From a virus (taxonomy: Duplodnaviria > Caudoviricetes), in IMG/VR virus record IMGVR_UViG_3300032167_000048: 64,000 nt of DNA, one strand, 5' to 3'. Below the pieces are notes generated by a model. It saw only the letters and a program-made list of their open reading frames with translations. It was not told where the DNA came from and ran no database searches. A program made the position numbers and the translations under genes. Shown here in pieces: positions 1,920 through 64,000 of the stretch (positions within the stretch are counted from its first letter, which is position 1; each line of letters opens with the position of its first letter).

Positions 1920-2588
1920 GTGATGAATATGTTAAATAAAAATGGTGTTTTTACTTATAAAGATGATTCTTATGATTTTAATTTTAAAACTTCTTTATCA
2001 GCAATGGAAAAATTGTCTTTTGTCAGAAATGTAGTTGACACAATTGTAGATGATAAAAGTTATGATGTTGTAATTAGAGATTTGGTTTTTGATTTTAATA
2101 TTATTGCATTTTTTACAAATATAGATACATCATTTATCGAAATGAAAGACGAAGATGGTAATGATATTAATCATATTCTTCTTATTGAACATTTCTTAAA
2201 TGAGTCTAATGTTGTTGATATTGTAAAGGCAAATATGGAAGACGGAGTAATCGAAGAACTTACAAATGCAATTGATTTAAATGTTCAGTATCTTACTGGA
2301 ATTTGTTTAAATTCAGTTAACAATTCATTGGCAAAATTACTTTCAACATTAGAAAAAAAATTTAATGGTGTTGATTTAGACAGTATGATGCCTATGGTTC
2401 AGAAGTTTGCAAGTATGACTGATGATTTTACAGTAGACAACATTGTTAGCGCTTATATGAATAGCGACATTCACAAAAGTAATATTGTTGAAATTGAAAA
2501 AGCAAAAGCGTCAAAAGAAGAAAAAGTAGAAGTATCAGAATCTAAAAAGTCAACAAAGAAAAAAGAAGATAAAACAAAAAGCGAATAA
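1920..2588 (+). CDS. hypothetical protein, possible tail assembly chaperone
   Basis: Position between tail tube and TMP; acidic helical protein. Confidence 0.4.
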   Translation: MMNMLNKNGVFTYKDDSYDFNFKTSLSAMEKLSFVRNVVDTIVDDKSYDVVIRDLVFDFNIIAFFTNIDTSFIEMKDEDGNDINHILLIEHFLNESNVVDIVKANMEDGVIEELTNAIDLNVQYLTGICLNSVNNSLAKLLSTLEKKFNGVDLDSMMPMVQKFASMTDDFTVDNIVSAYMNSDIHKSNIVEIEKAKASKEEKVEVSESKKSTKKKEDKTKSE

Positions 2589-2598
2589 AAATTCGTAG

Positions 2599-3072
2599 GT
2601 GATATATATGATTATTAAAAACAATGCCCAGCTAACAAAAGCTATAATGTCAAAATGTGTTGACGCTGTGAATAGTGCGGAATTAAAAATTTATGGTGAT
2701 TTTTTTGACATGGTTCACCATTTCTACACAGAGTTTTCTCCAGATGAGTATATAAGAACATATGCATTATACACATCATTGGATTCCACTGGTGCAAAAG
2801 TAAACGGAGATTCTGTGAGTGCAAAAGTATATTTTAATACGCCAAGTTATCAACAAGGCATGATGGAATTACAACATACTCCAGAGCATGGAATGTATGG
2901 TTGGGCTAGTCATAGTGGAGAAGAGGTTCTTGACACTGCGATGACTAGTAAAAAATCACATGGTGGTCATATTAGTGGTACTCCTATTTGGACTACCACT
3001 ATGAAAAAGCTTGGTGGGAAAGCTGGAATAAAAGATTTGTTAAAACAAGAATTAAAAAGTCAAGGTCTTTAA
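2599..3072 (+). CDS. hypothetical virion morphogenesis protein (possibly HK97 gp10-like)
   Basis: Y.RT..L..S motif (EYIRTYALYTS) and position in the tail module. Confidence 0.4.
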   Translation: MIYMIIKNNAQLTKAIMSKCVDAVNSAELKIYGDFFDMVHHFYTEFSPDEYIRTYALYTSLDSTGAKVNGDSVSAKVYFNTPSYQQGMMELQHTPEHGMYGWASHSGEEVLDTAMTSKKSHGGHISGTPIWTTTMKKLGGKAGIKDLLKQELKSQGL

Positions 3073-33125: not shown

Positions 33126-33446
33126 ATGTTTTACAAAGTTATTAAAGATAATAAAGTTATAGATGTGCTCGACCAATTAATTTACTTGAAATATCAACCT
33201 AAGCATAAAATCATGGTTTTAAGTGATGAGAATGAAGCACAAGCTATACTTTCTTCTGACGGAAATACCGTTTGGCATGAACGCACTTTATATAATATAC
33301 CTACTTCAGAAATGCATTTTGAAACAGTGGATTTGATTGAAATCGATGAACATGAATACAAAAAGTTAAAAACATTAAATCTGTCCACACCAGAAGAAAT
33401 AATCGATGAAGTGATTTTATATCTTATTAACAATGGTATTATTTAA
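33126..33446 (+). CDS. small fibre-associated protein (possible chaperone)
   Basis: ORF with GAGGT SD directly after the fibre gene. Confidence 0.5.
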   Translation: MFYKVIKDNKVIDVLDQLIYLKYQPKHKIMVLSDENEAQAILSSDGNTVWHERTLYNIPTSEMHFETVDLIEIDEHEYKKLKTLNLSTPEEIIDEVILYLINNGII

Positions 33447-54838: not shown

Positions 54839-55000
54839 TTAAAAAATTGATATTAACCATTTAATCGCATATGGTAAATTAATAATTGCACATACAGCAT
54901 CCATTGTCATAAACGCAATATTTTTTGTATGATATCCATGATAGAATGCAAGAGCTCCACATATTACACTCATAACAAAATTAAAAAACATAGTATCCAT
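54839..55000 (-). CDS. small membrane protein (53 aa)
   Basis: GGAGGTG SD before MDTMFF; two hydrophobic segments. Confidence 0.55.
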   Translation of the reverse strand: MDTMFFNFVMSVICGALAFYHGYHTKNIAFMTMDAVCAIINLPYAIKWLISIF

Positions 55001-55019
55001 ATTTACACCTCCTATAACT

Positions 55020-55565
55020 TTAATAGTTGAAATATTTTTTTCTATCAATTTTAACTTTGATTTCTGACGACATTCCTTGAATTGATTTTTCGTACCCATC
55101 ATTGTATATTACAAAGTCAACCTCGTCTTCGATTCCATCAAACTGACCAACATCAGACAAGCTTCTTCTGTACGCTTCTTCAATATTATCGCCACGTTGA
55201 AGAATTTTAATTAGTCTATCTCTACGAGGGACATTGATATAAAATGAGATTATATTAATGCCATTAATTTTACTTACTTGTCTTAATCCATGTGGTGTAA
55301 GCACTGCAATTTTATCATCTGTACAATCTTCTTTTGCAGTTCCATAATGCCATCCGTTATATACAGCAGTCTCTGCAAAAAATCCCTCATTTTTTAATTG
55401 TAAAAATGTTTTATCATCGGTGAAGTGATAGTCAACACCATCTACTTCACCGTCTCTAGGCTGTCTAGTTGTATATGAAACAACTTTTTTATAGCCATCA
55501 TTTTCTACTAAATATTTTTCAATACTAGATTTACCACTAGCTGATTCTCCTACCAATACAATCAT
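55020..55565 (-). CDS. gmk: guanylate kinase
   Basis: GESASGKS P-loop, SYTTRQPRDGEVDGVDYHF and YNGWHYGT. Confidence 0.9.
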   Translation of the reverse strand: MIVLVGESASGKSSIEKYLVENDGYKKVVSYTTRQPRDGEVDGVDYHFTDDKTFLQLKNEGFFAETAVYNGWHYGTAKEDCTDDKIAVLTPHGLRQVSKINGINIISFYINVPRRDRLIKILQRGDNIEEAYRRSLSDVGQFDGIEDEVDFVIYNDGYEKSIQGMSSEIKVKIDRKKYFNY

Positions 55566-55576
55566 AATCTACTCCT

Positions 55577-55726
55577 TTACATATCTCTAACTTTTGCTTT
55601 AAGTTGTTCAAGAAAAATATATTCATCTGTATCATATCTATCTTTTGCTATCATATGTTTTACTTGTTCGTTAATTATAAGGTCGAGTAAAGTAGTTTTT
55701 TCTTCTTTCGTCAACTTCTGGCACAT
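55577..55726 (-). CDS. 49-aa hypothetical protein (not in ORF track)
   Basis: MCQKLTKEEK...KVRDM fills the gap between two co-oriented genes. Confidence 0.5.
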   Translation of the reverse strand: MCQKLTKEEKTTLLDLIINEQVKHMIAKDRYDTDEYIFLEQLKAKVRDM

Positions 55727-55727
55727 T

Positions 55728-55940
55728 TTAAATACCACCCTTATCTAAAATGTCAAATATTGTAATCATATCTTTTCTTGAAATGCTTACTTCTTTAATC
55801 TGTTCTTTTATTTTATTCATGTTAACTTCTATTGGATAGTCATCTAAAAAGTCAATTAATACTTGAAATGCTTGTCTTCCTAATCCTTTACAATGAATGA
55901 GATTAGTTAAAAGCTCTCTTTTACTAATTAAATCGTCCAT
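55728..55940 (-). CDS. hypothetical protein
   Basis: MDDLISKRELL phage-type N-terminus; GGAG SD. Confidence 0.55.
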   Translation of the reverse strand: MDDLISKRELLTNLIHCKGLGRQAFQVLIDFLDDYPIEVNMNKIKEQIKEVSISRKDMITIFDILDKGGI

Positions 55941-55943
55941 ATT

Positions 55944-56564
55944 CTACTCCTTCCAAATATTTGTGTCGCTACAAATTTGTTCCTTAATAAACTCCGTATA
56001 TTCTTTTAATTCTTTTTTGAATGCTTCTTTTTTGTTATATTCGCATGTGAACATTTCAGGACACAACCCATTTCTATATACACATTCTCTAACACACAAA
56101 CTATGTAATTCTGGTTCTAATTCTTTAAATGCATTTACAATTTTATCCCATACATATCTTGTTTCATAGCTTGCACAATTACAGTATCTTTTTCTAGAAA
56201 TATTTATAAAAGCCTGAAAATTAAAAATATATTCGGCACTTTGCAATGTATTTCTATTCGGAACTTCATCATAATTATTTCTATCACTTCTTAATGTTGA
56301 TACAAATGGGGTTGCACCAAGGCTATGTCTAACTAAATGCCCATGAACAAATTGTGGCGCGTCATAAACTTTTACAATAATATGCGGAATTCTGATTGGA
56401 GAATGTTCAGCCATTAGCAATCTTTTTTTCCAATCAGAGTCTGGGTATTTGCCACTGTCCCTTCCAATTGTGGTCATTGTAGCATTTTTAACTTCTTGCC
56501 ACATATCTTCGTGCCATCTCACTTCTACTCTTACTTTTGATAAATCTGCTTTTTTATTACTCAT
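55944..56564 (-). CDS. thyX: FAD-dependent thymidylate synthase (ThyX-like)
   Basis: EHSPI, HLVRH.....S.R and SRKRYC..AS.ETR motifs. Likely start MSNKK, after GGAAGG and a promoter. Confidence 0.75.
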   Translation of the reverse strand: MSNKKADLSKVRVEVRWHEDMWQEVKNATMTTIGRDSGKYPDSDWKKRLLMAEHSPIRIPHIIVKVYDAPQFVHGHLVRHSLGATPFVSTLRSDRNNYDEVPNRNTLQSAEYIFNFQAFINISRKRYCNCASYETRYVWDKIVNAFKELEPELHSLCVRECVYRNGLCPEMFTCEYNKKEAFKKELKEYTEFIKEQICSDTNIWKE

Positions 56565-56649
56565 TTTATCTACCTTCCTTTTAATATATAACCTTAACAG
56601 TATAAAAGCTATAACCAACTGTTAAGATTTAACATCTTTTACAAGTATG

Positions 56650-56688
56650 ATTATAGCTTATTATCTTAACTTTGTCAAGTACTTTTTT
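56650..56688 (-). promoter_or_regulatory. consensus sigma-A promoter for the thyX operon
   Basis: TTGACA (56673-78), 17 nt, TATAAT (56650-55); A-tract upstream. Confidence 0.8.
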
Positions 56689-56696
56689 AAAAAATT

Positions 56697-57329
56697 TTAT
56701 TTTAATGTTTTATAATATTTATCGAAATCAAATTCAAGATATTTCTTAGAACTTAATAAATCACAAGAATGCACAAACCATTCTAAGTTCTTAGATGGTT
56801 TTGGCAATACAACTCCTTTTGCATATGGAGCGGTGTTATATTTCCCCATATGAGATTTGATACACATAACAGTTAAAGGAACAGCCTTTCTCATATAATC
56901 CATATCATTGTCCGACAGTTTATTGTTCTTAAAATATTCTGTTACTGTTGATACAAATAAATTGCCAGCAACTAAAGGATGGTCAAAACGTGTGCTATGT
57001 TTTGGTGTGTCATCTGGTTTGCAACAATCATGTAAAATTAAAGATGCGTAAACAATATCTTCATAAATATCACTATAATCATCTCTATTTAATAATCCTT
57101 TTAATACATCTGATTCAATCATTGACCAAGCAATTCCGACTGTTGCTTTTACGTGTCTTACAAGCCCTCCATCTCCTAAAGAATATGACGGATGATATCT
57201 TCCAGATGATGACGCTGGAATTGTCTGAATGCACTCTGGGCTTGCATTTAATGTGTTTGCTACAACATTTCTCATATGTTCGTTTTTAATAAGATTTAAT
57301 TCTTTTTCAAATAATTCTGATGTCTTCAT
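56697..57329 (-). CDS. HD-domain phosphohydrolase
   Basis: PASSSGRYHP, GGLVRH, LHD, HMG and H..D motifs. Confidence 0.8.
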   Translation of the reverse strand: MKTSELFEKELNLIKNEHMRNVVANTLNASPECIQTIPASSSGRYHPSYSLGDGGLVRHVKATVGIAWSMIESDVLKGLLNRDDYSDIYEDIVYASLILHDCCKPDDTPKHSTRFDHPLVAGNLFVSTVTEYFKNNKLSDNDMDYMRKAVPLTVMCIKSHMGKYNTAPYAKGVVLPKPSKNLEWFVHSCDLLSSKKYLEFDFDKYYKTLK

Positions 57330-57389
57330 TTCTCACCTCTAATGTTATAGGGCATGTATTTTACACGCCCTATAATTTTATTGCTTATA

Positions 57390-58151
57390 TTAATTTACTT
57401 TGTATACGTCTGCATGTCTTGAGCCAAACTGCAATGCTTCGCTATGACTGTTAAAATAAATGTCTACATGACCATACGGAGTTCCTCTGTCCTCAACTGT
57501 ATACACATGTCCATTAATTAAAAGTTTTGTGCCAAAGGCAACACCGCCCATAGCAACTGTTCTTCCAGCTGATGGCATAGTGCCACTTGCTGTTGCGCCA
57601 CCAGCCCATTTTCCACAACATTTAGAGCAGTTGCAATATGCTGTTAATCTAAAGTTGCCTAAGTATTCGCTTGCTTTTTCTTCTGCTGCTTTAATTTTTT
57701 CATTTTTTGTTTCTTCGTCCATTAAGTATTCGTTCCAAAGATAGAAGTGACTATATCTTCCATTTTCATTTAATACTGAAATTTTTGTCCAACCATTATA
57801 ATCAGACATTGCTGTTACTTCTGTATATGGCTTTAACACTTTTGTAACGTTTGAAGTGATATTTGGAAATGGTCTCATATTTAAATATGTTGTAGTATAT
57901 AAAGTTTTGTATTCATCATATTCATTACTGAAAAGCATATCTAAATATTCGTCTGTAATATCTAATGGAATAGCCATTTTCCAATTCTTTACTTCTGTTG
58001 CTTCAATAATTTTTTCTACTTCTGGTTTTTTAGTTTCATTTGTTTTTGTTTCGCTTGTTTTTGTGCTACTCTGTGTTTCTGCTTTCGTTGAACAGCAAGG
58101 AATTACCATCAACGAAAGAGCCATAAACAAAATCAATAAACCTTTTTTCAT
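57390..58151 (-). CDS. secreted SH3 + 3D-domain cell-wall hydrolase
   Basis: Signal peptide, LNMR SH3, TAY..TASG..VEDRG..HVDIY 3D motif. Confidence 0.8.
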   Translation of the reverse strand: MKKGLLILFMALSLMVIPCCSTKAETQSSTKTSETKTNETKKPEVEKIIEATEVKNWKMAIPLDITDEYLDMLFSNEYDEYKTLYTTTYLNMRPFPNITSNVTKVLKPYTEVTAMSDYNGWTKISVLNENGRYSHFYLWNEYLMDEETKNEKIKAAEEKASEYLGNFRLTAYCNCSKCCGKWAGGATASGTMPSAGRTVAMGGVAFGTKLLINGHVYTVEDRGTPYGHVDIYFNSHSEALQFGSRHADVYKVN

Positions 58152-58163
58152 TTTATATTCTCC

Positions 58164-58748
58164 TTATTCTCCCCAGCACTCGGCACGATGTTCGCAATCG
58201 TCACAGTCTAAATCTGTGTCAAGACATTCATCAATTTCATCGCACTCATCACATTCATCACAATATTCACAACAATCATAACATCCGTTACAGTCGCATT
58301 CTTCTTCATATAATTCACTCTGAAGTTTATATCCTTCAAGCTCCCAAATTTTATCAATAATTTTATCCACGCAGATTTCAAATCCCATTTCTTCATCATA
58401 ATTATCTGGGCTTACGCATGCAGATGATTCTACAATAACAAATCCGTTTGGAAGTTCGCATGTTACAATAGTACACTTATCATAAATTGTCTGAATTTCA
58501 ATATTTGATTTTGCAACAATACGTTTAATCATTTCTTCTGTTACTGTTGGAGCTGCTTTTGGTTCTACATATTTTTCAAAATATTCATTATATTCATCTG
58601 TGCTCATTACTCCTTTGTGCATCATGTGTTCACCAAATGCAAATGAAATAATACCACCATCAACACCAATTACTTCTGCGATGTCTCCTTTTTTTAAGAA
58701 GCTTGTTACATCTTTTGTTACGATTAATTTGTCTCCTTTAGCTAACAT
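58164..58748 (-). CDS. phage Gp49-like protein with acidic Cys-rich tail
   Basis: L.NGF...ESSACVSP.NYD..IWELEGY motif; C-terminal C..C repeats. Confidence 0.7.
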   Translation of the reverse strand: MLAKGDKLIVTKDVTSFLKKGDIAEVIGVDGGIISFAFGEHMMHKGVMSTDEYNEYFEKYVEPKAAPTVTEEMIKRIVAKSNIEIQTIYDKCTIVTCELPNGFVIVESSACVSPDNYDEEMGFEICVDKIIDKIWELEGYKLQSELYEEECDCNGCYDCCEYCDECDECDEIDECLDTDLDCDDCEHRAECWGE

Positions 58749-58751
58749 AAT

Positions 58752-59915
58752 TTAGCCCTCACTTTCTTTTCTTTCATTTTTAATTTTATTTGACCACCAA
58801 ACATTCCATTTTTCTACAATCTCTTTCTGTTCTTTTGTAAGAGGATGATTGTATCTCTGTAATGCTTGGACAATCTTATCGTTTCTAACCTCAATTGTTA
58901 CGAGGCTTTCGCTTGGTGCGTCTTTATATCTTAAGAATAAAATATGACACTGACCATCAATAACTCTTTGGATATATGATGCTACACAGTTGTTCTGAGC
59001 AACGGCTTCATCTTTGATATCCTGAGTACAATTTGGATAAAAGAATCTATACTCTCCAAACGTTTTCTCCATATCTTTATTAATTCTATCTTTGAATTTT
59101 TCTTCTTTAAACTGCTGTTTTAATCTATCATAGTTTCTACAAGCAATCTGATGTGTTGTAAGAAAATGTCTAGGGTATTTATCAAATTTATCACTAATTT
59201 GTTTCATCATAGATGCATAATCATAAATTTCACCCAATGCGCTACTTGGAATAATGGCTTCAAATGTCATCAAATAATCAAGATAATTCATTAATCCTTT
59301 TACTGTATATCCATATTCTGAAATAAGCTTATTAAATGTTGAAACACTAACCCAGTTATAATCCCATGTTCTTTCTCCGTAATATTTTTTTACAGATTTT
59401 GTATTATGTAATATGCTATTAATTTCATCATCTGTTAATGACATATATTCAAGCTTATACGCAAGTTGATATCCGTCTGGATTTTCTTTATAATTTTTTA
59501 AAAAGCTATCTGATAATTTAATACTATGTGTTTTACATAATTTAATTAATGCTTTTGGAATGTCATTGATTGTATATGAGAAATTACGAGTATTAATAAT
59601 ATCTTCAATTCCAGCAGAAAAAATCTGTTCGTATTTTGCATAACGTGGAATCTTATCTAAAATTGTTCCAACGTTATTAATGTCATGAAATCTGCTTGAA
59701 TATGTTCTTTTAACAAATGAAAGAAACTTTGCATACTTCTCATCTTCACAACAATTAATAACATCATCCATTGTCAACCCTCTTAACTGAGAGCACAAAT
59801 TAGTTACTGGTTTACCTTTTTTTCCAATACATTCTTTTGTAGCGAAATTATATTTTACTGTCTTGCCATCTTCAAAATCAAAAATTAAAAACTGTCTTTC
59901 TTTATAAACTTTCAT
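58752..59915 (-). CDS. PcfJ-like domain protein
   Basis: E...NNCVASY, ILFLR and TIEV....Q motifs. Confidence 0.7.
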   Translation of the reverse strand: MKVYKERQFLIFDFEDGKTVKYNFATKECIGKKGKPVTNLCSQLRGLTMDDVINCCEDEKYAKFLSFVKRTYSSRFHDINNVGTILDKIPRYAKYEQIFSAGIEDIINTRNFSYTINDIPKALIKLCKTHSIKLSDSFLKNYKENPDGYQLAYKLEYMSLTDDEINSILHNTKSVKKYYGERTWDYNWVSVSTFNKLISEYGYTVKGLMNYLDYLMTFEAIIPSSALGEIYDYASMMKQISDKFDKYPRHFLTTHQIACRNYDRLKQQFKEEKFKDRINKDMEKTFGEYRFFYPNCTQDIKDEAVAQNNCVASYIQRVIDGQCHILFLRYKDAPSESLVTIEVRNDKIVQALQRYNHPLTKEQKEIVEKWNVWWSNKIKNERKESEG

Positions 59916-59960
59916 ACTTCTTTTTCATTCATTATTTAAAACCTTGTTAATAAGTTACAA

Positions 59961-60039
59961 TTGCAAGATAAGGATTTGAACCTTAGTTTAATCTTAGCTT
60001 TGCTATAAGATTCGTGTTATCCATTTACACTATCTTGCA
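59961..60039 (-). ncRNA. tRNA-like element with an elongated, anticodon-less arm
   Basis: Acceptor TGCAAGA/TCTTGCA, D arm GTGT/ACAC, T arm TAAGG-TTCAAAT-CCTTA; anticodon arm is 23 nt instead of 17. Confidence 0.65.
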
Positions 60040-60046
60040 TTAATAT

Positions 60047-60448
60047 GTTATTCGCTATTTACCAGCCTTGCAGATGCTTATAGTCATGTACAACTAAACT
60101 AAACTGTATATCAAGGATTTTGTAAATCTTTATAACTTTACTATTTATTCTTTTAACTTTGACTCATGAAATAAACTTTGAATTTTTAACTTTATTATTT
60201 GAGTTTTACAACTTTAAACTTTACAGTCCCACTATGTAAATATTTATCAATATTTGGCTATAAGTTTAACACACTTACCCATTTTGATAAACAATCAAAT
60301 AAAAAGATTTCCAATCTTTTCCTCTGTTGTTTTTCTAAATCTCAGCTTTTAAGAAGAAGAGGTGTTTCTTTATTGTTTTACATAAGTCTAAGCACCCCTA
60401 AAAGACTTATGAGTTGTAGTCTAAAGTTTTCAATAAACAGCGAATAAC
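60047..60448 (-). ncRNA. candidate ~400-nt structured ncRNA with AAAG heptamer array
   Basis: 17-bp terminal stem whose 3 G-U pairs work only on the minus strand, internal hairpins, 12 AAA(G)NNN units, no credible ORF. Confidence 0.6.
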
Positions 60449-60484
60449 CAATTTATATTAACTACATAAGTAGCTTTCTACTAT

Positions 60485-61141
60485 TTAGTAGTTAACTTCA
60501 ATTTCTGTAATTGCATTAGATACTGAAAGCGCAGCGTCTACTTCTGCCTTGAATGTGTTAATATGTTCTTCTAATGCGTTAATCTTATCCAGAATCTTGA
60601 TAGGGTCTACAAGTTCGTATGTATTTGCTTTAATGAACTGCATTCTAGCCTTTTCATATTCTTCTGTATTCACCTTGCCCTCTTTAGAACCAAATGCACC
60701 AATTACATACTGTTCTGCTCTTTTTTCAAGTTCAGAGCCGTTTTCTCTAAGGATTTCAGCCTGAGCTCTGTTATACTGTTTCTGTAATTCAAGGAGCATG
60801 TGTTCATCAAAAGTAACACCATGATTTTTCATTTCAATAGCTTCTGCCACTGTGTATTCAATACCATTAATTTTTACTTTTGTTACTGCGTTTGACAATA
60901 CAACAGCTTTTTTAATAGCGTTTCTTCTCTTAATCAAATCAGATGCCTTGTCGTAGTTTCCCTGCATAACAGTTTTATATTCTTCAACTGACACGCCTTT
61001 GATTTTATCGTTTGAATGTTTATTTGCTACACAAAATGAACCATTCATAATAGAAGAAAGAATTCTATTATCTAAAAGCTTTAATTCTGCTAATGCTTTA
61101 TGAATTGTCATCTTTTCATTTGTTGCCATGATTTTCACCAT
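60485..61141 (-). CDS. 218-aa helical protein linked to the downstream ncRNA
   Basis: MTIHKALAELKLLDNRI..YTVAEAI..VDAALSVSNA.T.I helical-hairpin pattern. Resemblance to DIP1984/DUF6847-type proteins is tentative recall only. Confidence 0.7.
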   Translation of the reverse strand: MVKIMATNEKMTIHKALAELKLLDNRILSSIMNGSFCVANKHSNDKIKGVSVEEYKTVMQGNYDKASDLIKRRNAIKKAVVLSNAVTKVKINGIEYTVAEAIEMKNHGVTFDEHMLLELQKQYNRAQAEILRENGSELEKRAEQYVIGAFGSKEGKVNTEEYEKARMQFIKANTYELVDPIKILDKINALEEHINTFKAEVDAALSVSNAITEIEVNY

Positions 61142-61215
61142 TTTAACCTTTCTTTTAAACTTTGAATCTTTTAAACTTTATTACACCAACGTTTTATAGG
61201 CTAGACATTGGTAAA

Positions 61216-61285
61216 CAAGAACGGTGGGAGTCGAACCCACGTCTACGACTTAAAGTCATTGCTCTACCTACTGAGCTACATTCCC
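61216..61285 (-). tRNA. atypical tRNA/pseudo-tRNA with shortened anticodon arm (UUA if read as a 4-bp stem + 7-nt loop)
   Basis: GGGAATG-TA-GCTC-AGTAGGTA-GAGC-A-ATGACTTTAAGTCGT-AGAC-GTGGG-TTCGACT-CCCAC-CGTTCTT-G, 70 nt. Confidence 0.6.
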
Positions 61286-61358
61286 GATTGTGTAGGGACT
61301 TCCTACACAGCACCTAAAAAGGAAAGGAGGATTATTTAAAAAAGATTTTCTACAACGA

Positions 61359-61431
61359 CTGCCCCTACTGGATTCGAACCAGTGTAATGCAGGAGTCAAA
61401 GTCCTGTGCCTTACCGCTTGGCGAAGGAGCA
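61359..61431 (-). tRNA. tRNA-Gln(UUG)
   Basis: Canonical cloverleaf; anticodon arm CAGGA-CTTTGAC-TCCTG; no encoded CCA. Confidence 0.92.
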
Positions 61432-61436
61432 ATAAG

Positions 61437-61525
61437 TACACCCTCCCAGATTCGAACTGGGCTTATACCTTGCTAGGGCTTACGACTTATAAGGTCGTGG
61501 CTCTCACCTAATGAGCTAAGGGTGC
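61437..61525 (-). tRNA. tRNA-Ile(UAU) with long variable region
   Basis: Acceptor GCACCCT/AGGGTGT, anticodon arm ACGAC-CTTATAA-GTCGT, 20-nt variable region, T arm CCCAG-TTCGAAT-CTGGG, discriminator A. Confidence 0.8.
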
Positions 61526-61624
61526 TGAAAGGAGTGCCGCCTTTAACGGCTTATTCATTTTAGAATAAGGTTGAGTTCCACTGCTTTATGACAAAAAACA
61601 AAGAATCCAGAGATTCGAAATTGG

Positions 61625-61768
61625 CTATTTATCATTGATTGCAGATTTTGCTCTCTGCTTTTCTCCCTCAATTTCATTACTGAGTTTTCTCATAATTGAA
61701 GTCCATCTTGCATAAGCTGTATGCTTTCCTCTTTTACTGTTTACATTTGAATTCTGATTAAGATTCAT
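61625..61768 (-). CDS. 47-aa basic protein, first gene after the tandem promoters (not in ORF track)
   Basis: MNLNQNSNVNSKRGKHTAYARWTSIMRKLSNEIEGEKQRAKSAINDK; AAGGAG SD. Confidence 0.6.
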   Translation of the reverse strand: MNLNQNSNVNSKRGKHTAYARWTSIMRKLSNEIEGEKQRAKSAINDK

Positions 61769-61799
61769 ATTGTTCTCCTTATAACCTTATTTTTTATTT

Positions 61800-61944
61800 G
61801 CTTCATTTGATATATTTAGTATATCATATTTAAAGCAGTTTGTCAAGTAGTTTTTTGAACTTTTTATTTTTTTATTTCTATTTGTTCGCTTCACTTGATA
61901 TATTAACTATATCATATTTACCATTATTTGTCAAGTAGTTTTTT
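61800..61944 (-). promoter_or_regulatory. two duplicated strong sigma-A promoters driving the tRNA/ncRNA operon
   Basis: TTGACA-17-TATACT (61818-46) and TTGACA-17-TATAGT (61906-34), both with an extended TG and identical AAAAAACTAC upstream; 88-bp period. Confidence 0.8.
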
Positions 61945-61951
61945 AGACTTT

Positions 61952-62407
61952 TTACATTTCTTCAATGTTTTTATATTCTGACAGATTGTGGAAGTAATTA
62001 ACCTTATCATCTAATTCGTATACTACTTTTCTTAATTCGGCTTCTTTTTTCTTGCTATCAGTTCTTGTATACTTCTTCCACATCTTATCTCTTTCTTTGT
62101 GTAATTCAACGTATTTCTCGGTCACATCTTCTTCGCCAATGACGTTAATTACAATTGGTTCTCCACAGAATGGACAATGAGTTAACTTATAATAAGTTTC
62201 TTCTTCATATTCATCTCCCCAGTCATAAAATGATTCTGTGAATCTTATAGAAATTGATGGAGTAATTGTATCTTCGCATTCATCTGTGTATTCGCAAACC
62301 AAATTAATTATAGGATTGTTTTTTAGTTTTTCACAACACCATTCAAATGGCTTATATTTATAACCATCATAACAATCAAATGTCTGTCTGATTAATTCTA
62401 TATTCAT
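61952..62407 (-). CDS. hypothetical protein with CC...CPFCG zinc motif
   Basis: WCCE...HCPFCG. Confidence 0.6.
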   Translation of the reverse strand: MNIELIRQTFDCYDGYKYKPFEWCCEKLKNNPIINLVCEYTDECEDTITPSISIRFTESFYDWGDEYEEETYYKLTHCPFCGEPIVINVIGEEDVTEKYVELHKERDKMWKKYTRTDSKKKEAELRKVVYELDDKVNYFHNLSEYKNIEEM

Positions 62408-62432
62408 ATACTTCCCTTTCGTTTATGTATGC

Positions 62433-62470
62433 ATTATAGCATATAACATTATTGATTGTAAGTACTTTTT
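62433..62470 (-). promoter_or_regulatory. sigma-A-type promoter
   Basis: TTACAA-17-TATAAT with extended TG and the same AAAAAAGTAC upstream motif as the thyX promoter. Confidence 0.6.
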
Positions 62471-62479
62471 TGGGAAAAA

Positions 62480-63148
62480 TTATAAATTATCCTTAAGATA
62501 ATTTAAATATTCATCCCAGAAGCCTTTTACATAAATGTACTCTTTGCTTTGTCTAGCCAGCTTCATTTTCTTCATATCATCTTTTATATTAAAGGATTCA
62601 GATTGCTTCTTGCCTCTCTTGCAAAGACTTTTTGACATGATATCGTCTAAGAAATCATTCGTAACTCTTGAGATGGAAAGTAGCTCGCCTTTAGGCACAT
62701 CCTTGGTAATTTCTTTATATAGTGCGATTTTCTCGGCTGGTATTTCCACATTTGACTTTGGAAGATTACGGCTTGAAAATGGTGAGATACTAGCTCCACT
62801 TGTACGTGCTTTTAATAATTCTGCTACAATTTCAATGTCAGCAGCTTTAAATTTGAATTCTACTTCTTCGTCATTTTCAATATGGTCAACATATTCAATA
62901 CCACTTTCTTTAACTGCTTTAATAATATTATGACCACGTCCAATTGATGGTATATATGCAACCAACCACACTGGTCTCTTATTATCAATATGACCATATG
63001 TGTAAATTCTATTTCCATTTTGACACGAAATATAAACATCTATATCTTCAATGTTCCCATCTGCGTCCCTAGGAAAATCATTTGTGTCTTGGTCTAATTC
63101 ACATAGTAGTCTATATTGTCCTTTGTATCTCATCAAATAATTTGCCAT
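62480..63148 (-). CDS. hypothetical phage protein
   Basis: 222-aa ORF with GGAG SD; no recognised family. Confidence 0.65.
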   Translation of the reverse strand: MANYLMRYKGQYRLLCELDQDTNDFPRDADGNIEDIDVYISCQNGNRIYTYGHIDNKRPVWLVAYIPSIGRGHNIIKAVKESGIEYVDHIENDEEVEFKFKAADIEIVAELLKARTSGASISPFSSRNLPKSNVEIPAEKIALYKEITKDVPKGELLSISRVTNDFLDDIMSKSLCKRGKKQSESFNIKDDMKKMKLARQSKEYIYVKGFWDEYLNYLKDNL

Positions 63149-63150
63149 AA

Positions 63151-63423
63151 CTAATACTCCTTACCTTTAAACAACTCTCTGGCTAAAACAGTTCCACATT
63201 CAATAGTTTCAATATCAAAATCTACTGGCATAATTGCACATTCATGCATTACAACAATTGGAACTTTCATTGTTTCAGCCACTCGACCCTCTTTACCTAA
63301 TTCACTCATAGAATAATTAATAAACATTTCCATGAAATTTTGTGCTTCTTGTTGAGATTCAAACAAGATAATTCTGCCTTTATTATGAAAATAAAGACCG
63401 CTCTTATGCATGATTATAAACAT
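63151..63423 (-). CDS. hypothetical protein
   Basis: ORF with GGTGG SD. Confidence 0.55.
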   Translation of the reverse strand: MFIIMHKSGLYFHNKGRIILFESQQEAQNFMEMFINYSMSELGKEGRVAETMKVPIVVMHECAIMPVDFDIETIECGTVLARELFKGKEY

Positions 63424-63467
63424 ATTTCATTCACCACCTAATAAAATTGGGATTTTAAGTGCTATTT

Positions 63468-63516
63468 TGCACTATATATAGTGCATTAGAAAATGCTAAC
63501 ACACTATATATAGTAG
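63468..63516. promoter_or_regulatory. tandem NrdR-box-like palindromes
   Basis: TGCACTATATATAGTGCA and ACACTATATATAGTAG with centres 32 bp apart; matches the acaCwAtATaTwGtg consensus. Confidence 0.7.
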
Positions 63517-63524
63517 TTAAAAAA

Positions 63525-63764
63525 TTACATGTCTGCCAATCTGTCATTCATAGAATCAATTTTTAATTTGTCTGAATGAGTCATGCCATGTTTACAATTG
63601 AAATCAGTCTTGCCAGCACATAACGGACAAGAGCAATGAACTTTGTTCTTAGAGTATTGATGCAGATTATCATATAATGACGCTCCATGATTATGCTCTG
63701 CGATATTCTTTTTTCTGATTGCCTTGTTATAATCGTTTTTTCTTCTCTCTGCTCTTGTTTTCAT
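63525..63764 (-). CDS. small basic protein with HCSCPLC motif
   Basis: Start MKTRAERR after a GAGG SD. Confidence 0.6.
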   Translation of the reverse strand: MKTRAERRKNDYNKAIRKKNIAEHNHGASLYDNLHQYSKNKVHCSCPLCAGKTDFNCKHGMTHSDKLKIDSMNDRLADM

Positions 63765-63783
63765 AATTGTACCTCTTATAATT

Positions 63784-64000
63784 TTATTTATTTGTACTAC
63801 CGAATCCACCAACTCTTACATTGTCTGTATTACCATTATCAGCAACTAAGAAGTTAAAGAATGCTCCCTGAGCAACTCTATCTCCTTTATTAATTGTTAA
63901 TACATCATTACTAATGTTTTTTAAGAAGATGCCAATGTTGCCATCATTTCCATCATTAGAGTAATAATCCGAATCAATCCATCCAGAAGTGTTGGCTAAC
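63784..64000 (-). CDS. dut: dUTPase (3' part; not in ORF track)
   Basis: LANTSGWIDSDYY...GDRVAQ...RVGGFGST, trimeric dUTPase motifs III-V. Confidence 0.9.
   Translation of the reverse strand, partial: LANTSGWIDSDYYSNDGNDGNIGIFLKNISNDVLTINKGDRVAQGAFFNFLVADNGNTDNVRVGGFGSTNK

What the first reader, a model, noticed from the sequence alone, without database searches (positions are those of the whole stretch)
61141..61212. Same AAAG repeats cover the RBS of the 218-aa gene; a 5' hairpin loop is complementary to the ncRNA 3' end
Seen: the 5' UTR on the minus strand reads AAAGUUUA AAAGAUUC AAAGUUUA AAAGAAAG GUUAAAAUG, four AAAG units with the last overlapping the GAAAGG SD. Upstream is an 8-bp hairpin (61185-61212) whose loop sequence CUAGCCU can pair with AGGCUGG (60068-60062) next to the ncRNA terminal stem. 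Inference: the protein represses its own translation when the ncRNA is saturated, and the UTR and ncRNA may contact each other across the ORF. The repeat occurring in both places supports AAAG as the protein's ligand.
Basis: partly seen in the sequence, partly recalled or inferred. Interest (0 to 1): 0.72.

Follow-up and report, generated by a model that had tools for sequence, protein, structure and literature searches.

The report
Partner-RNA repeats reused in gene leader
The short leader of a conserved phage gene carries copies of the same AAAGUU unit that is repeated about a dozen times in the large folded RNA encoded just downstream; this fits a protein that limits its own synthesis through a look-alike of its RNA partner, whereas the proposed leader-to-RNA base pairing is a chance match.

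Summary
The leader (61180-61147, minus strand) holds four AAAG units, and a fifth forms the GAAAGG Shine-Dalgarno. The 13-nt word AAAGUUUAAAAGA occurs twice here and nowhere else in the window.

The repeats exceed chance and are conserved. AAAG[AU]U lies just before the Shine-Dalgarno in 22 of 35 dereplicated Firmicute-type homologous loci. Only 7 of 176 control leaders have it, and composition-matched shuffles give about 6. In five lineages it sits downstream of a consensus promoter, so it is transcribed.

The same unit forms the 7-nt-periodic, unpaired array (60227-60121) of a ~400-nt RNA. That RNA is closed by a strongly covarying helix, and its 5' quarter is Rfam RAGATH-27.

The second claim fails. 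A 7-nt match occurs in 46% of shuffles and in 1 of 35 lineages. Six of the seven target bases (AGGCUGG) sit in covarying helices inside the RNA.

My best reading (confidence 0.45) is that the predicted-dimeric protein binds the array and, as a weaker site, its own leader, blocking the ribosome. No binding has been shown.

This scan has already found the gene-plus-RNA pair on at least ten other genomes. I confirmed it in T5-like phages and in cyanobacterial tRNA arrays.

The parts
61215..61286 (-). tRNA-like gene (anticodon read as UUA, shortened anticodon arm) directly upstream. Its 3' end probably defines the 5' end of the leader.
   Evidence: ARAGORN; Rfam tRNA at 57 bits. No promoter-like site between it and the gene.
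61184..61213 (-). 9-bp hairpin with a 12-nt loop (CUAGCCUAUAAA), starting 1-2 nt after the tRNA-like gene.
   Evidence: RNAfold. Its sequence is not conserved. Other lineages have different small hairpins or none.
61152..61180 (-). Leader repeats: U-AAAGUUUA-AAAGAUUC-AAAGUUUA-AAAG. This is two copies of AAAGUUUAAAAGA, 16 nt apart, and is predicted unpaired.
   Evidence: The homologous position carries AAAG[AU]U in 22 of 35 lineages.
61147..61152 (-). Shine-Dalgarno GAAAGG, overlapping the last AAAG units, 5 nt before the ATG at 61141.
   Evidence: Relatives have GGAG 2-7 nt after the last unit.
60485..61141 (-). 218-aa helical protein gene (PHROG 1491, no Pfam family). Predicted to form a symmetric homodimer.
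60359..60444 (-). 5' quarter of the partner RNA, matching Rfam RAGATH-27. It contains an H-type pseudoknot: stem A 60411-60403 with 60389-60381, stem B 60398-60393 with 60364-60359.
   Evidence: cmscan 88 bits against a gathering score of 76.1. Stem A is 88% paired and 9 of 9 pairs covary. Stem B was read by eye.
60432..60448 (-). 5' strand of closing helix P1.
   Evidence: Pairs with 60063-60047. The 13-bp core counted is 99% paired, and 12 of 13 pairs have changes on both sides.
60121..60227 (-). Array of about 12 heptad units (xAAAGxU), split by a U-rich spacer and unpaired in the consensus fold.
   Evidence: Autocorrelation peaks at lags 7 and 14, clearest in five relatives; in the window itself lags 7 and 8 score alike. 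Conserved columns in A2. No pairs predicted there.
60112..60116 (-). CCUUG, which pairs with CAAGG at 60070-60066.
   Evidence: RNAalifold helix at columns 636-640 with 689-693. Two of its pairs show 11 and 10 double changes and none broken.
60062..60068 (-). AGGCUGG, the proposed target of the leader loop. GGCUG is invariant. AGG lies in the CCUUG/CAAGG helix, and UGG closes and joins P1.
60047..60063 (-). 3' strand of closing helix P1.
59961..60039 (-). tRNA-like element with an abnormal anticodon arm, 7 nt after the RNA.
   Evidence: ARAGORN 'tRNA-???'; Rfam tRNA at 48.9 bits.

Best explanation
The leader units are a low-copy imitation of the heptad array in the partner RNA. The 218-aa protein, probably a symmetric dimer, binds the single-stranded xAAAGxU units of the ~400-nt RNA encoded just after its gene. 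When protein exceeds free array sites, it also occupies the one to four units directly 5' of, and running into, its own Shine-Dalgarno. That keeps the 30S subunit off and caps synthesis, so protein is matched to RNA.

Shown:
- the shared unit, its specificity to this gene family and its conservation;
- its position in a transcribed, unpaired leader next to the Shine-Dalgarno;
- the reality of the structured RNA with an unpaired array.

Inferred:
- that the protein is the ligand;
- that binding represses translation;
- that the array competes with the leader.

The upstream hairpin is more likely a 5'-end stabiliser left after tRNA 3' processing than a contact point for the RNA.
For: 1. The unit is specific to these two places in the window.

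2. AAAG[AU]U lies at -40 to -5 in 22 of 35 dereplicated (88% identity or less) Firmicute-type lineages. Only 7 of 176 Shine-Dalgarno-bearing control leaders in the same loci have it (p = 3.6e-15). For UAAAG[AU]U the counts are 18 of 35 against 1 of 176. Dinucleotide shuffles of the leaders give a mean of 6.1 and a maximum of 13 in 1000.

3. The unit persists where everything further upstream differs, whether tRNA, ORF end or promoter. It recurs in Erwinia phage Special G at 31% protein identity.

4. In L062, L073, L086, L088 and L099, a TTGACA-16/17-TATAAT/TATACT promoter ends 14-39 nt before the unit, so the unit is in the RNA.

5. The units start 21-35 nt before the ATG in those promoter-bearing leaders, and GGAG follows the last unit closely across lineages. 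By established knowledge this is inside the 30S footprint.

6. The leader repeats are predicted unpaired, as is the array.

7. The gene and RNA are co-conserved in 47 of 51 lineages, and P1 covaries.

8. The homodimer model scores 0.65 against 0.00 for the best control. That mark was reached by 20 of 30 proteins solved as pairs and by 1 of 23 solved as single chains. The three runs agree in at least 96% of contacts, and partner pLDDT is at least 85. A dimer suits paired units.

9. Leaders match the arrays better than shuffled leaders do, 7.84 against 6.47 (p = 0.0014).
Against: - No binding data exist.
- The protein is mildly acidic, median pI 5.7, and has no recognised RNA-binding fold.
- The motif is absent from 13 of 35 Firmicute-type leaders. 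In cyanobacteria it is at background (1 of 16 against 1 of 52). Self-control by this route is therefore not universal.
- Leaders do not track lineage-specific variants of their own array, 7.84 against 7.80, p = 0.46.
- The last unit, AGAAAGG, is also simply an extended match to the 16S rRNA 3' end (established knowledge).
- A/U-rich leaders can enhance translation without any dedicated factor.
Confidence: 0.45

Rival explanations
1. The leader units are a factor-independent translation enhancer or standby site: an unstructured A/U-rich tract plus an extended Shine-Dalgarno. They resemble the array only because both are A-rich single strands.
For: The leader is unpaired. AGAAAGG extends complementarity to the 16S 3' end (established knowledge). 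There is no lineage-specific co-variation with the own array. Some distant lineages have G-less units such as UAAAUUU.
Against: Composition-matched shuffles give 6.1 of 35, not 22. Only 4% of other Shine-Dalgarno-bearing leaders in the same phages carry the unit. The G of AAAG and the following U are conserved, which A/U-richness alone does not explain.
Confidence: 0.2
2. Leader and array share a ligand, but it is a host component, for example a ribosomal protein, the 30S subunit or an RNA chaperone. The RNA would act as a sponge, and the 218-aa protein would have another role.
For: The motif evidence is the same as for the best explanation. The protein is acidic and has no known RNA-binding fold.
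Against: The leader motif is tied to this one gene family across phages of very different hosts: Clostridia, an Acholeplasmataceae genome bin (L086) and Erwinia. Gene and RNA are almost always adjacent. Both facts point to a dedicated partner.
Confidence: 0.15
3. The units are cleavage or processing signals that release the mRNA and the RNA from a tRNA-containing polycistron.
For: In the window there is no promoter or terminator between the tRNAs, the gene and the RNA. tRNAs often flank the module.
Against: Lineages with their own promoter keep the units. The units abut the Shine-Dalgarno rather than the tRNA end.
Confidence: 0.08
4. The units work at the DNA level, as operator or iteron sites for a DNA-binding protein.
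For: Direct repeats downstream of promoters can be operators.
Against: The array lies inside an RNA whose closing helix needs G-U pairs on this strand and covaries. The units are strand-specific and adjoin the Shine-Dalgarno.
Confidence: 0.05
5. One reading: the leader hairpin loop pairs with AGGCUGG next to the RNA's terminal stem, linking the leader and the RNA.
For: 7 nt of complementarity with one G-U exists in this window.
Against: 46.5% of shuffles give such a match. Only 1 of 35 lineages has a partner of 6 nt or more, against 8.7% of random windows. L026 changes both arms of its local hairpin while AGGCUGG stays fixed. Six of the 7 target bases are in covarying intramolecular helices.
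Confidence: 0.03

Closest known systems
Phage T4 gene 32 autogenous translational control (from my own knowledge, not checked here)
   Same: The protein first saturates its main nucleic-acid ligand. It then binds an unstructured A/U-rich leader with short repeated words next to a 5' structured element, and so blocks its own translation.
   Different: Here the main ligand would be a dedicated structured RNA rather than single-stranded DNA. The protein is not an OB-fold single-strand binder. The 5' hairpin is not conserved.
CsrA/RsmE titrated by CsrB/RsmZ-type decoy RNAs (established knowledge)
   Same: A decoy RNA carries many copies of a short single-stranded motif. The same motif overlaps the Shine-Dalgarno of the regulated mRNA, and the protein is a dimer.
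   Different: The motif is AAAGUU in 7-nt register, not GGA in hairpin loops. There is no CsrA domain. The only target seen is the protein's own gene, which is encoded next to the RNA.
TRAP of Bacillus, with (G/U)AG repeats in the trp leader and over the ribosome-binding sites of trpG, trpP and ycbK (established knowledge)
   Same: An oligomeric protein reads evenly spaced short repeats in single-stranded RNA. Repeats over a ribosome-binding site give translational repression.
   Different: The period is 7 nt rather than 5-6 nt and the unit differs. There is no TRAP family match, and the predicted assembly is a dimer, not an 11-mer ring.
RAGATH-27 RNA motif (Rfam RF03100)
   Same: The first 86 nt of the partner RNA match above the gathering score, 88 against 76.1 bits.
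   Different: The Rfam model covers only the 5' quarter. The closing helix, heptad array and GGCUG box lie outside it. The library search for papers naming RAGATH-27 found none.
ROOL and GOLLD large RNAs of phages and prophages near tRNA genes (PMC5737381)
   Same: Large ornate RNAs found in phages next to tRNA genes.
   Different: Neither Rfam model matches here at E up to 1. Those RNAs have no dedicated adjacent protein gene and no heptad array.

Membership tests
RAGATH-27 (Rfam RF03100) | Covariance-model score at or above the curated gathering score | tested here: met
   88 bits against 76.1 at 60359-60444. Dulem virus 39 scores 77.2. More distant relatives fall below threshold at 40-61 bits.
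Decoy-RNA titration system of the CsrA/CsrB kind | An RNA with many copies of a short single-stranded motif | tested here: met
   About 12 heptad units, period 7, unpaired in the consensus fold.
Decoy-RNA titration system of the CsrA/CsrB kind | The same motif at or over the Shine-Dalgarno of a regulated mRNA | tested here: met
   Leader units abut or overlap the Shine-Dalgarno in 22 of 35 lineages.
Decoy-RNA titration system of the CsrA/CsrB kind | A protein of the CsrA family | tested here: not met
   No Pfam family for the protein or for 22 relatives.
Decoy-RNA titration system of the CsrA/CsrB kind | The protein binds both the RNA and the leader | not testable with these tools
   No protein-RNA prediction or assay is available here.
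T4 gp32-type autogenous repression | An unstructured A/U-rich leader with repeated words reaching the ribosome-binding site | tested here: met
T4 gp32-type autogenous repression | A conserved 5' structured nucleation element | tested here: inconclusive
   The hairpin is present here. Relatives have different small hairpins or none.
T4 gp32-type autogenous repression | An OB-fold single-strand-binding protein | tested here: inconclusive
   No such fold appears among the matches. The only clear structural neighbour is an uncharacterised C. diphtheriae protein, 3kdq_A (Z 11.1, rmsd 6.7, 151 aligned).
TRAP-type repeat reader | A TRAP family protein and (G/U)AG triplets spaced by 2-3 nt | tested here: not met
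   No Pfam match. The unit is xAAAGxU with period 7.
PHROG 1491, labelled 'tail fiber protein' | Profile match over the full length | tested here: met
   E = 6.4e-57, residues 8-217.
PHROG 1491, labelled 'tail fiber protein' | Actually a tail-fibre component | tested here: inconclusive
   No tail-fibre fold appears among the PDB or viral matches. The gene sits among tRNA genes rather than in a structural module. The label looks propagated.
ROOL / GOLLD | A match to the Rfam covariance models | tested here: not met
   No hit at E up to 1 in 55000-64000.

The most novel reading that the evidence does not exclude
The 218-aa protein and the ~400-nt RNA form an undescribed ribonucleoprotein of tRNA-rich phages (including T5 relatives) and cyanobacterial tRNA arrays. 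In this reading, protein dimers line up on the 7-nt-spaced units, and the particle sets its own stoichiometry through a miniature copy of the array placed over the gene's ribosome-binding site.
Probability: 0.35. Interest if true: 0.85.

Novelty: new variant of a known kind. Interest (0 to 1): 0.68.

Why it matters
The leader copy gives evidence, separate from the RNA itself, that the AAAGUU units are a binding site and not filler. It points to the adjacent protein as the likely reader and turns an orphan RNA-protein pair into a testable circuit.

The pair is widespread. tblastn finds the protein in 741 phage records, and the protein search lists 4295 relatives. It occurs in T5-like phages of E. 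coli, so leader-reporter, gel-shift and deletion tests are straightforward in a model system.

If the reading holds, it adds a phage-encoded decoy-and-operator circuit to the few known cases (CsrA/CsrB, TRAP, gp32). It would also give a first handle on the function of a large RNA class that sits inside mobile tRNA arrays.

Tried and rejected
- **Leader loop pairing with AGGCUGG.** Rejected.
- **Antisense pairing between the leader UAAAGUUU and the RNA's conserved 5' single strand GAAAACUUUAAAC.** Rejected. That strand changes to CCCU or UCCU in many lineages while the leader stays AAAGUUU.
- **Lineage-specific co-variation of the leader with its own array.** None found.
- **The hairpin as a terminator.** No U-tract follows it, and none was called.
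- **AAAG cluster on the plus strand at 33135-33158.** It lies in a small reading frame I read by eye in the sequence (MFYKVIKDNKVI...), which is not in the list of frames of 120 aa or more.
- **Sequence search of solved structures.** Only weak ClpC N-domain rows, E of 0.05 or worse.
- **Foldseek against PDB.** Nothing at E of 0.001 or better.
- **Pfam.** No consistent family. DUF6847 hit 1 of 22 members at E = 0.02.
- **Whole genome.** None is held for this window, so I could not look for further leaders with the motif elsewhere in the phage.
- **Literature.** No paper names RAGATH-27. The supplement of the 2017 survey is not held. The paper on long tRNA arrays mentions embedded protein genes but, in the passages I read, not this one.

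Full report
**1. What is there**

On the minus strand the order is as follows:
- tRNA-Ile(UAU), 61525-61436
- tRNA-Gln, 61432-61357
- a tRNA-like gene read as UUA, 61286-61215
- a hairpin, 61213-61184
- an A-rich leader, 61180-61142
- a 218-aa ORF, 61141-60485
- a ~400-nt ORF-free stretch
- a second aberrant tRNA-like element, 60039-59961
- a PcfJ-like gene

It has AAAG at 61179, 61171, 61163 and 61155, then AAAGG, giving a GAAAGG Shine-Dalgarno 5 nt before the ATG. It is really two copies of the 13-mer AAAGUUUAAAAGA, 16 nt apart.

**2. Is it more than chance in this window?**

Yes.
- AAAGTTTAAAAG occurs twice in the whole window on either strand, both times here.
- On the minus strand, only two places hold three or more AAAG[ACT]T within 45 nt: this leader and 60222-60126 in the downstream RNA.
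- RNAfold leaves the repeats unpaired and forms the 9-bp hairpin. The leader overall is no more stable than shuffles, z = -0.59.

**3. The downstream RNA**

- Its first 86 nt match Rfam RAGATH-27, 88 bits against a gathering score of 76.1.
- A long-range helix P1 (60448-60432 with 60063-60047) closes the RNA. A simple search found P1 in 47 of 51 dereplicated homologous loci.
- On an alignment of 31 Firmicute-type RNAs (A2), the 13-bp P1 core is 99% paired, and 12 of 13 pairs change on both sides. Slid controls give 32-47%.
- A pseudoknot stem is 88% paired, and all nine of its pairs covary.
- RNAalifold independently recovers P1 and that stem. It adds a helix CCUUG (60116-60112) with CAAGG (60070-60066), in which two pairs show 11 and 10 double changes and none is broken. 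It leaves the central array unpaired.
- The array has a 7-nt period. Five relatives, including cyanobacterial loci, peak at lags 7 and 14; in the window itself lags 7 and 8 score alike.

**4. Are the leader repeats conserved?**

I collected 80 viral loci and 68 genome loci, then dereplicated them to 51 lineages at 88% protein identity or less.

In the 35 Firmicute-type lineages:
- AAAG[AU]U lies between -40 and -5 in 22. Among Shine-Dalgarno-bearing leaders of other ORFs in the same loci, 7 of 176 have it (Fisher p = 3.6e-15).
- UAAAG[AU]U is found in 18 of 35 against 1 of 176.
- Dinucleotide-preserving shuffles of the leaders themselves give a mean of 6.1 and never more than 13 in 1000.
- The typical form is UUAAAGUUUAAGGAG, so the last unit ends 2-7 nt before GGAG.
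- The unit survives where the sequence further upstream is unrelated: a tRNA, the end of an ORF, or a promoter.
- In L062, L073, L086, L088 and L099, a near-consensus TTGACA-16/17-TATAAT promoter ends 14-39 nt upstream of the unit. This places the unit in the transcript.

Relatedness of the lineages inflates the Fisher value, but the independent upstream contexts argue against simple inheritance.

The 16 cyanobacterial lineages do not show the unit above background (1 of 16 against 1 of 52).

Among cultured phages:
- Erwinia phage Special G (31% identity) has UAUAAAGUUUAAAAAGGAU.
- T5-like phages have a CAAA-rich leader that shares CUCAAACUUC with their own array.
- Others, such as Vibrio AG74 and Lactococcus 949, show nothing obvious.

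**5. The proposed leader-to-RNA pairing**

- It exists in this window but is not significant. 46.5% of shuffles of the 408-nt RNA give a 7-mer with at most one G-U against the 12-nt loop.
- Only the window itself, of 35 lineages, has a partner of 6 nt or more for AGGCUG in its leader, against 8.7% of random 102-nt windows.
- The close clade L002-L028 has a different local hairpin, AGGC-N4-5-GCCU. In L026 both arms change to AGGUA/UACCU, which keeps the local stem, while the RNA's AGGCUGG is unchanged.
- GGCUG is invariant in all lineages. Its neighbours are occupied: AGG pairs with CCU of the CCUUG helix, U pairs with the G that follows P1's 5' strand, and GG are the first two pairs of P1.
- The target is therefore a structural core of the RNA, not a free landing site.

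**6. The protein**

- The family is large: 4295 relatives. It has no Pfam family.
- It matches PHROG 1491, whose label 'tail fiber protein' looks propagated.
- The AlphaFold model is confident, pLDDT 86.7. It is helical with a small sheet.
- Its one clear solved neighbour is an uncharacterised C. diphtheriae protein, 3kdq_A (Z 11.1, rmsd 6.7, 151 aligned). Its viral neighbours are all uncharacterised.
- It is mildly acidic overall, median pI 5.7, with a net positive N-terminal half.
- A homodimer model scores 0.65 against 0.00 for the best control. That mark was reached by 20 of 30 proteins solved as pairs and by 1 of 23 solved as single chains. The runs agree in at least 96% of contacts, and partner pLDDT is at least 85. 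This supports dimerisation but does not show it.

**7. Context**

- In the window, no promoter-like or terminator-like site separates the tRNAs, the gene and the RNA. Co-transcription and tRNA-type processing are therefore likely. The hairpin 1-2 nt after the tRNA-like gene would then sit at the 5' end of the processed mRNA, where stem-loops are known to stabilise transcripts. This step is an inference.
- tblastn finds the protein in 741 phage records. Twelve of the 14 cultured phages I opened show a 300-500-nt unannotated gap downstream that holds a heptad array, and most also show GGCUG and a closing helix. Aeromonas LAh_8 shows no array, and Lactococcus 949 only a weak one.
- In cyanobacteria the module lies inside long tRNA arrays. 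These are the L-arrays of PMC8421152, which notes embedded protein genes.
- Earlier follow-ups of this scan reached the same view of the gene-plus-RNA pair on at least ten other genomes. I reached it independently before reading them.

**8. Mechanism**

The best-supported reading is a shared ligand for leader and array. The adjacent protein is the obvious candidate, and occlusion of the ribosome-binding site is the effect. In logic this is a gp32- or CsrA-like circuit with unrelated parts.

Against it:
- there are no binding data;
- the protein is acidic and of unknown fold;
- the motif is missing from a third of Firmicute-type lineages and from cyanobacteria;
- the leader does not co-vary with the lineage's own array variants (7.84 against 7.80, p = 0.46), although it matches arrays better than shuffled leaders do (6.47, p = 0.0014).

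I put the full model at 0.45. I put the weaker claim, that the leader units are a conserved functional element sharing a ligand with the array, at about 0.7.

**9. Verdict**

- The first half of the finding (repeats over the ribosome-binding site, same unit as the RNA) is confirmed and conserved.
- The second half (loop-to-RNA pairing) is a chance match, contradicted by the comparative data.
- The regulatory logic is a new variant of a known kind, sitting in an otherwise uncharacterised and widespread phage protein-RNA module.

Noticed in passing
window 59961-60039 (-): A tRNA-like element 7 nt after the RNA's closing helix. ARAGORN cannot assign an anticodon, and Rfam tRNA scores 48.9 bits. 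It may serve as a processing handle for the RNA's 3' end.
   Followed up: partly
window 61215-61286 (-): A tRNA read as a UUA (ochre) suppressor, with a shortened anticodon arm and several G-U pairs in the acceptor stem. The long ORFs in the window are intact under code 11, so there is no sign of recoding.
   Followed up: partly
window 61436-61525 (-): tRNA-Ile(UAU) with an unusually long variable region (90 nt in all).
   Followed up: no
L150 (Escherichia phage T5_ev219, LR597655.1) 2007-3010: T5-like phages carry the same gene, annotated 'Phage tail fiber protein', followed by an unannotated ~340-nt RNA with a closing helix, heptad array and GGCUG box. No Rfam family matches it.
   Followed up: partly
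L104-L148 (cyanobacterial genomes): The module sits inside long tRNA arrays. The RNA there often has a whole tRNA-like insert between the 5' domain and the heptad array.
   Followed up: partly
L074 900-1056; L063 1452-1579 and 809-863: RAGATH-36 matches (133 and 103 bits) in both loci, and in L063 a sub-threshold twister-P1 match. All lie 1-2 kb upstream of the gene in these gut-phage loci.
   Followed up: no
window 59915-59890 (-): The next gene (PcfJ-like) begins AUG-AAAGUUUAUAAAGAAAG, which is two or three AAAG units right at its start codon. This may be chance; I did not check it in relatives.
   Followed up: no
L087 leader; L099 leader: The L087 leader has GGAAAGG three times before the ATG instead of AAAGUU. 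The L099 leader carries AAGGCUGG, the RNA's invariant box in the same sense, just after its promoter.
   Followed up: no
L159 (Aeromonas phage LAh_8) 894-1190: In this phage a gene annotated as a ProQ-like RNA chaperone lies directly upstream of the homologue. Its downstream gap (~790 nt) shows no obvious heptad array.
   Followed up: no
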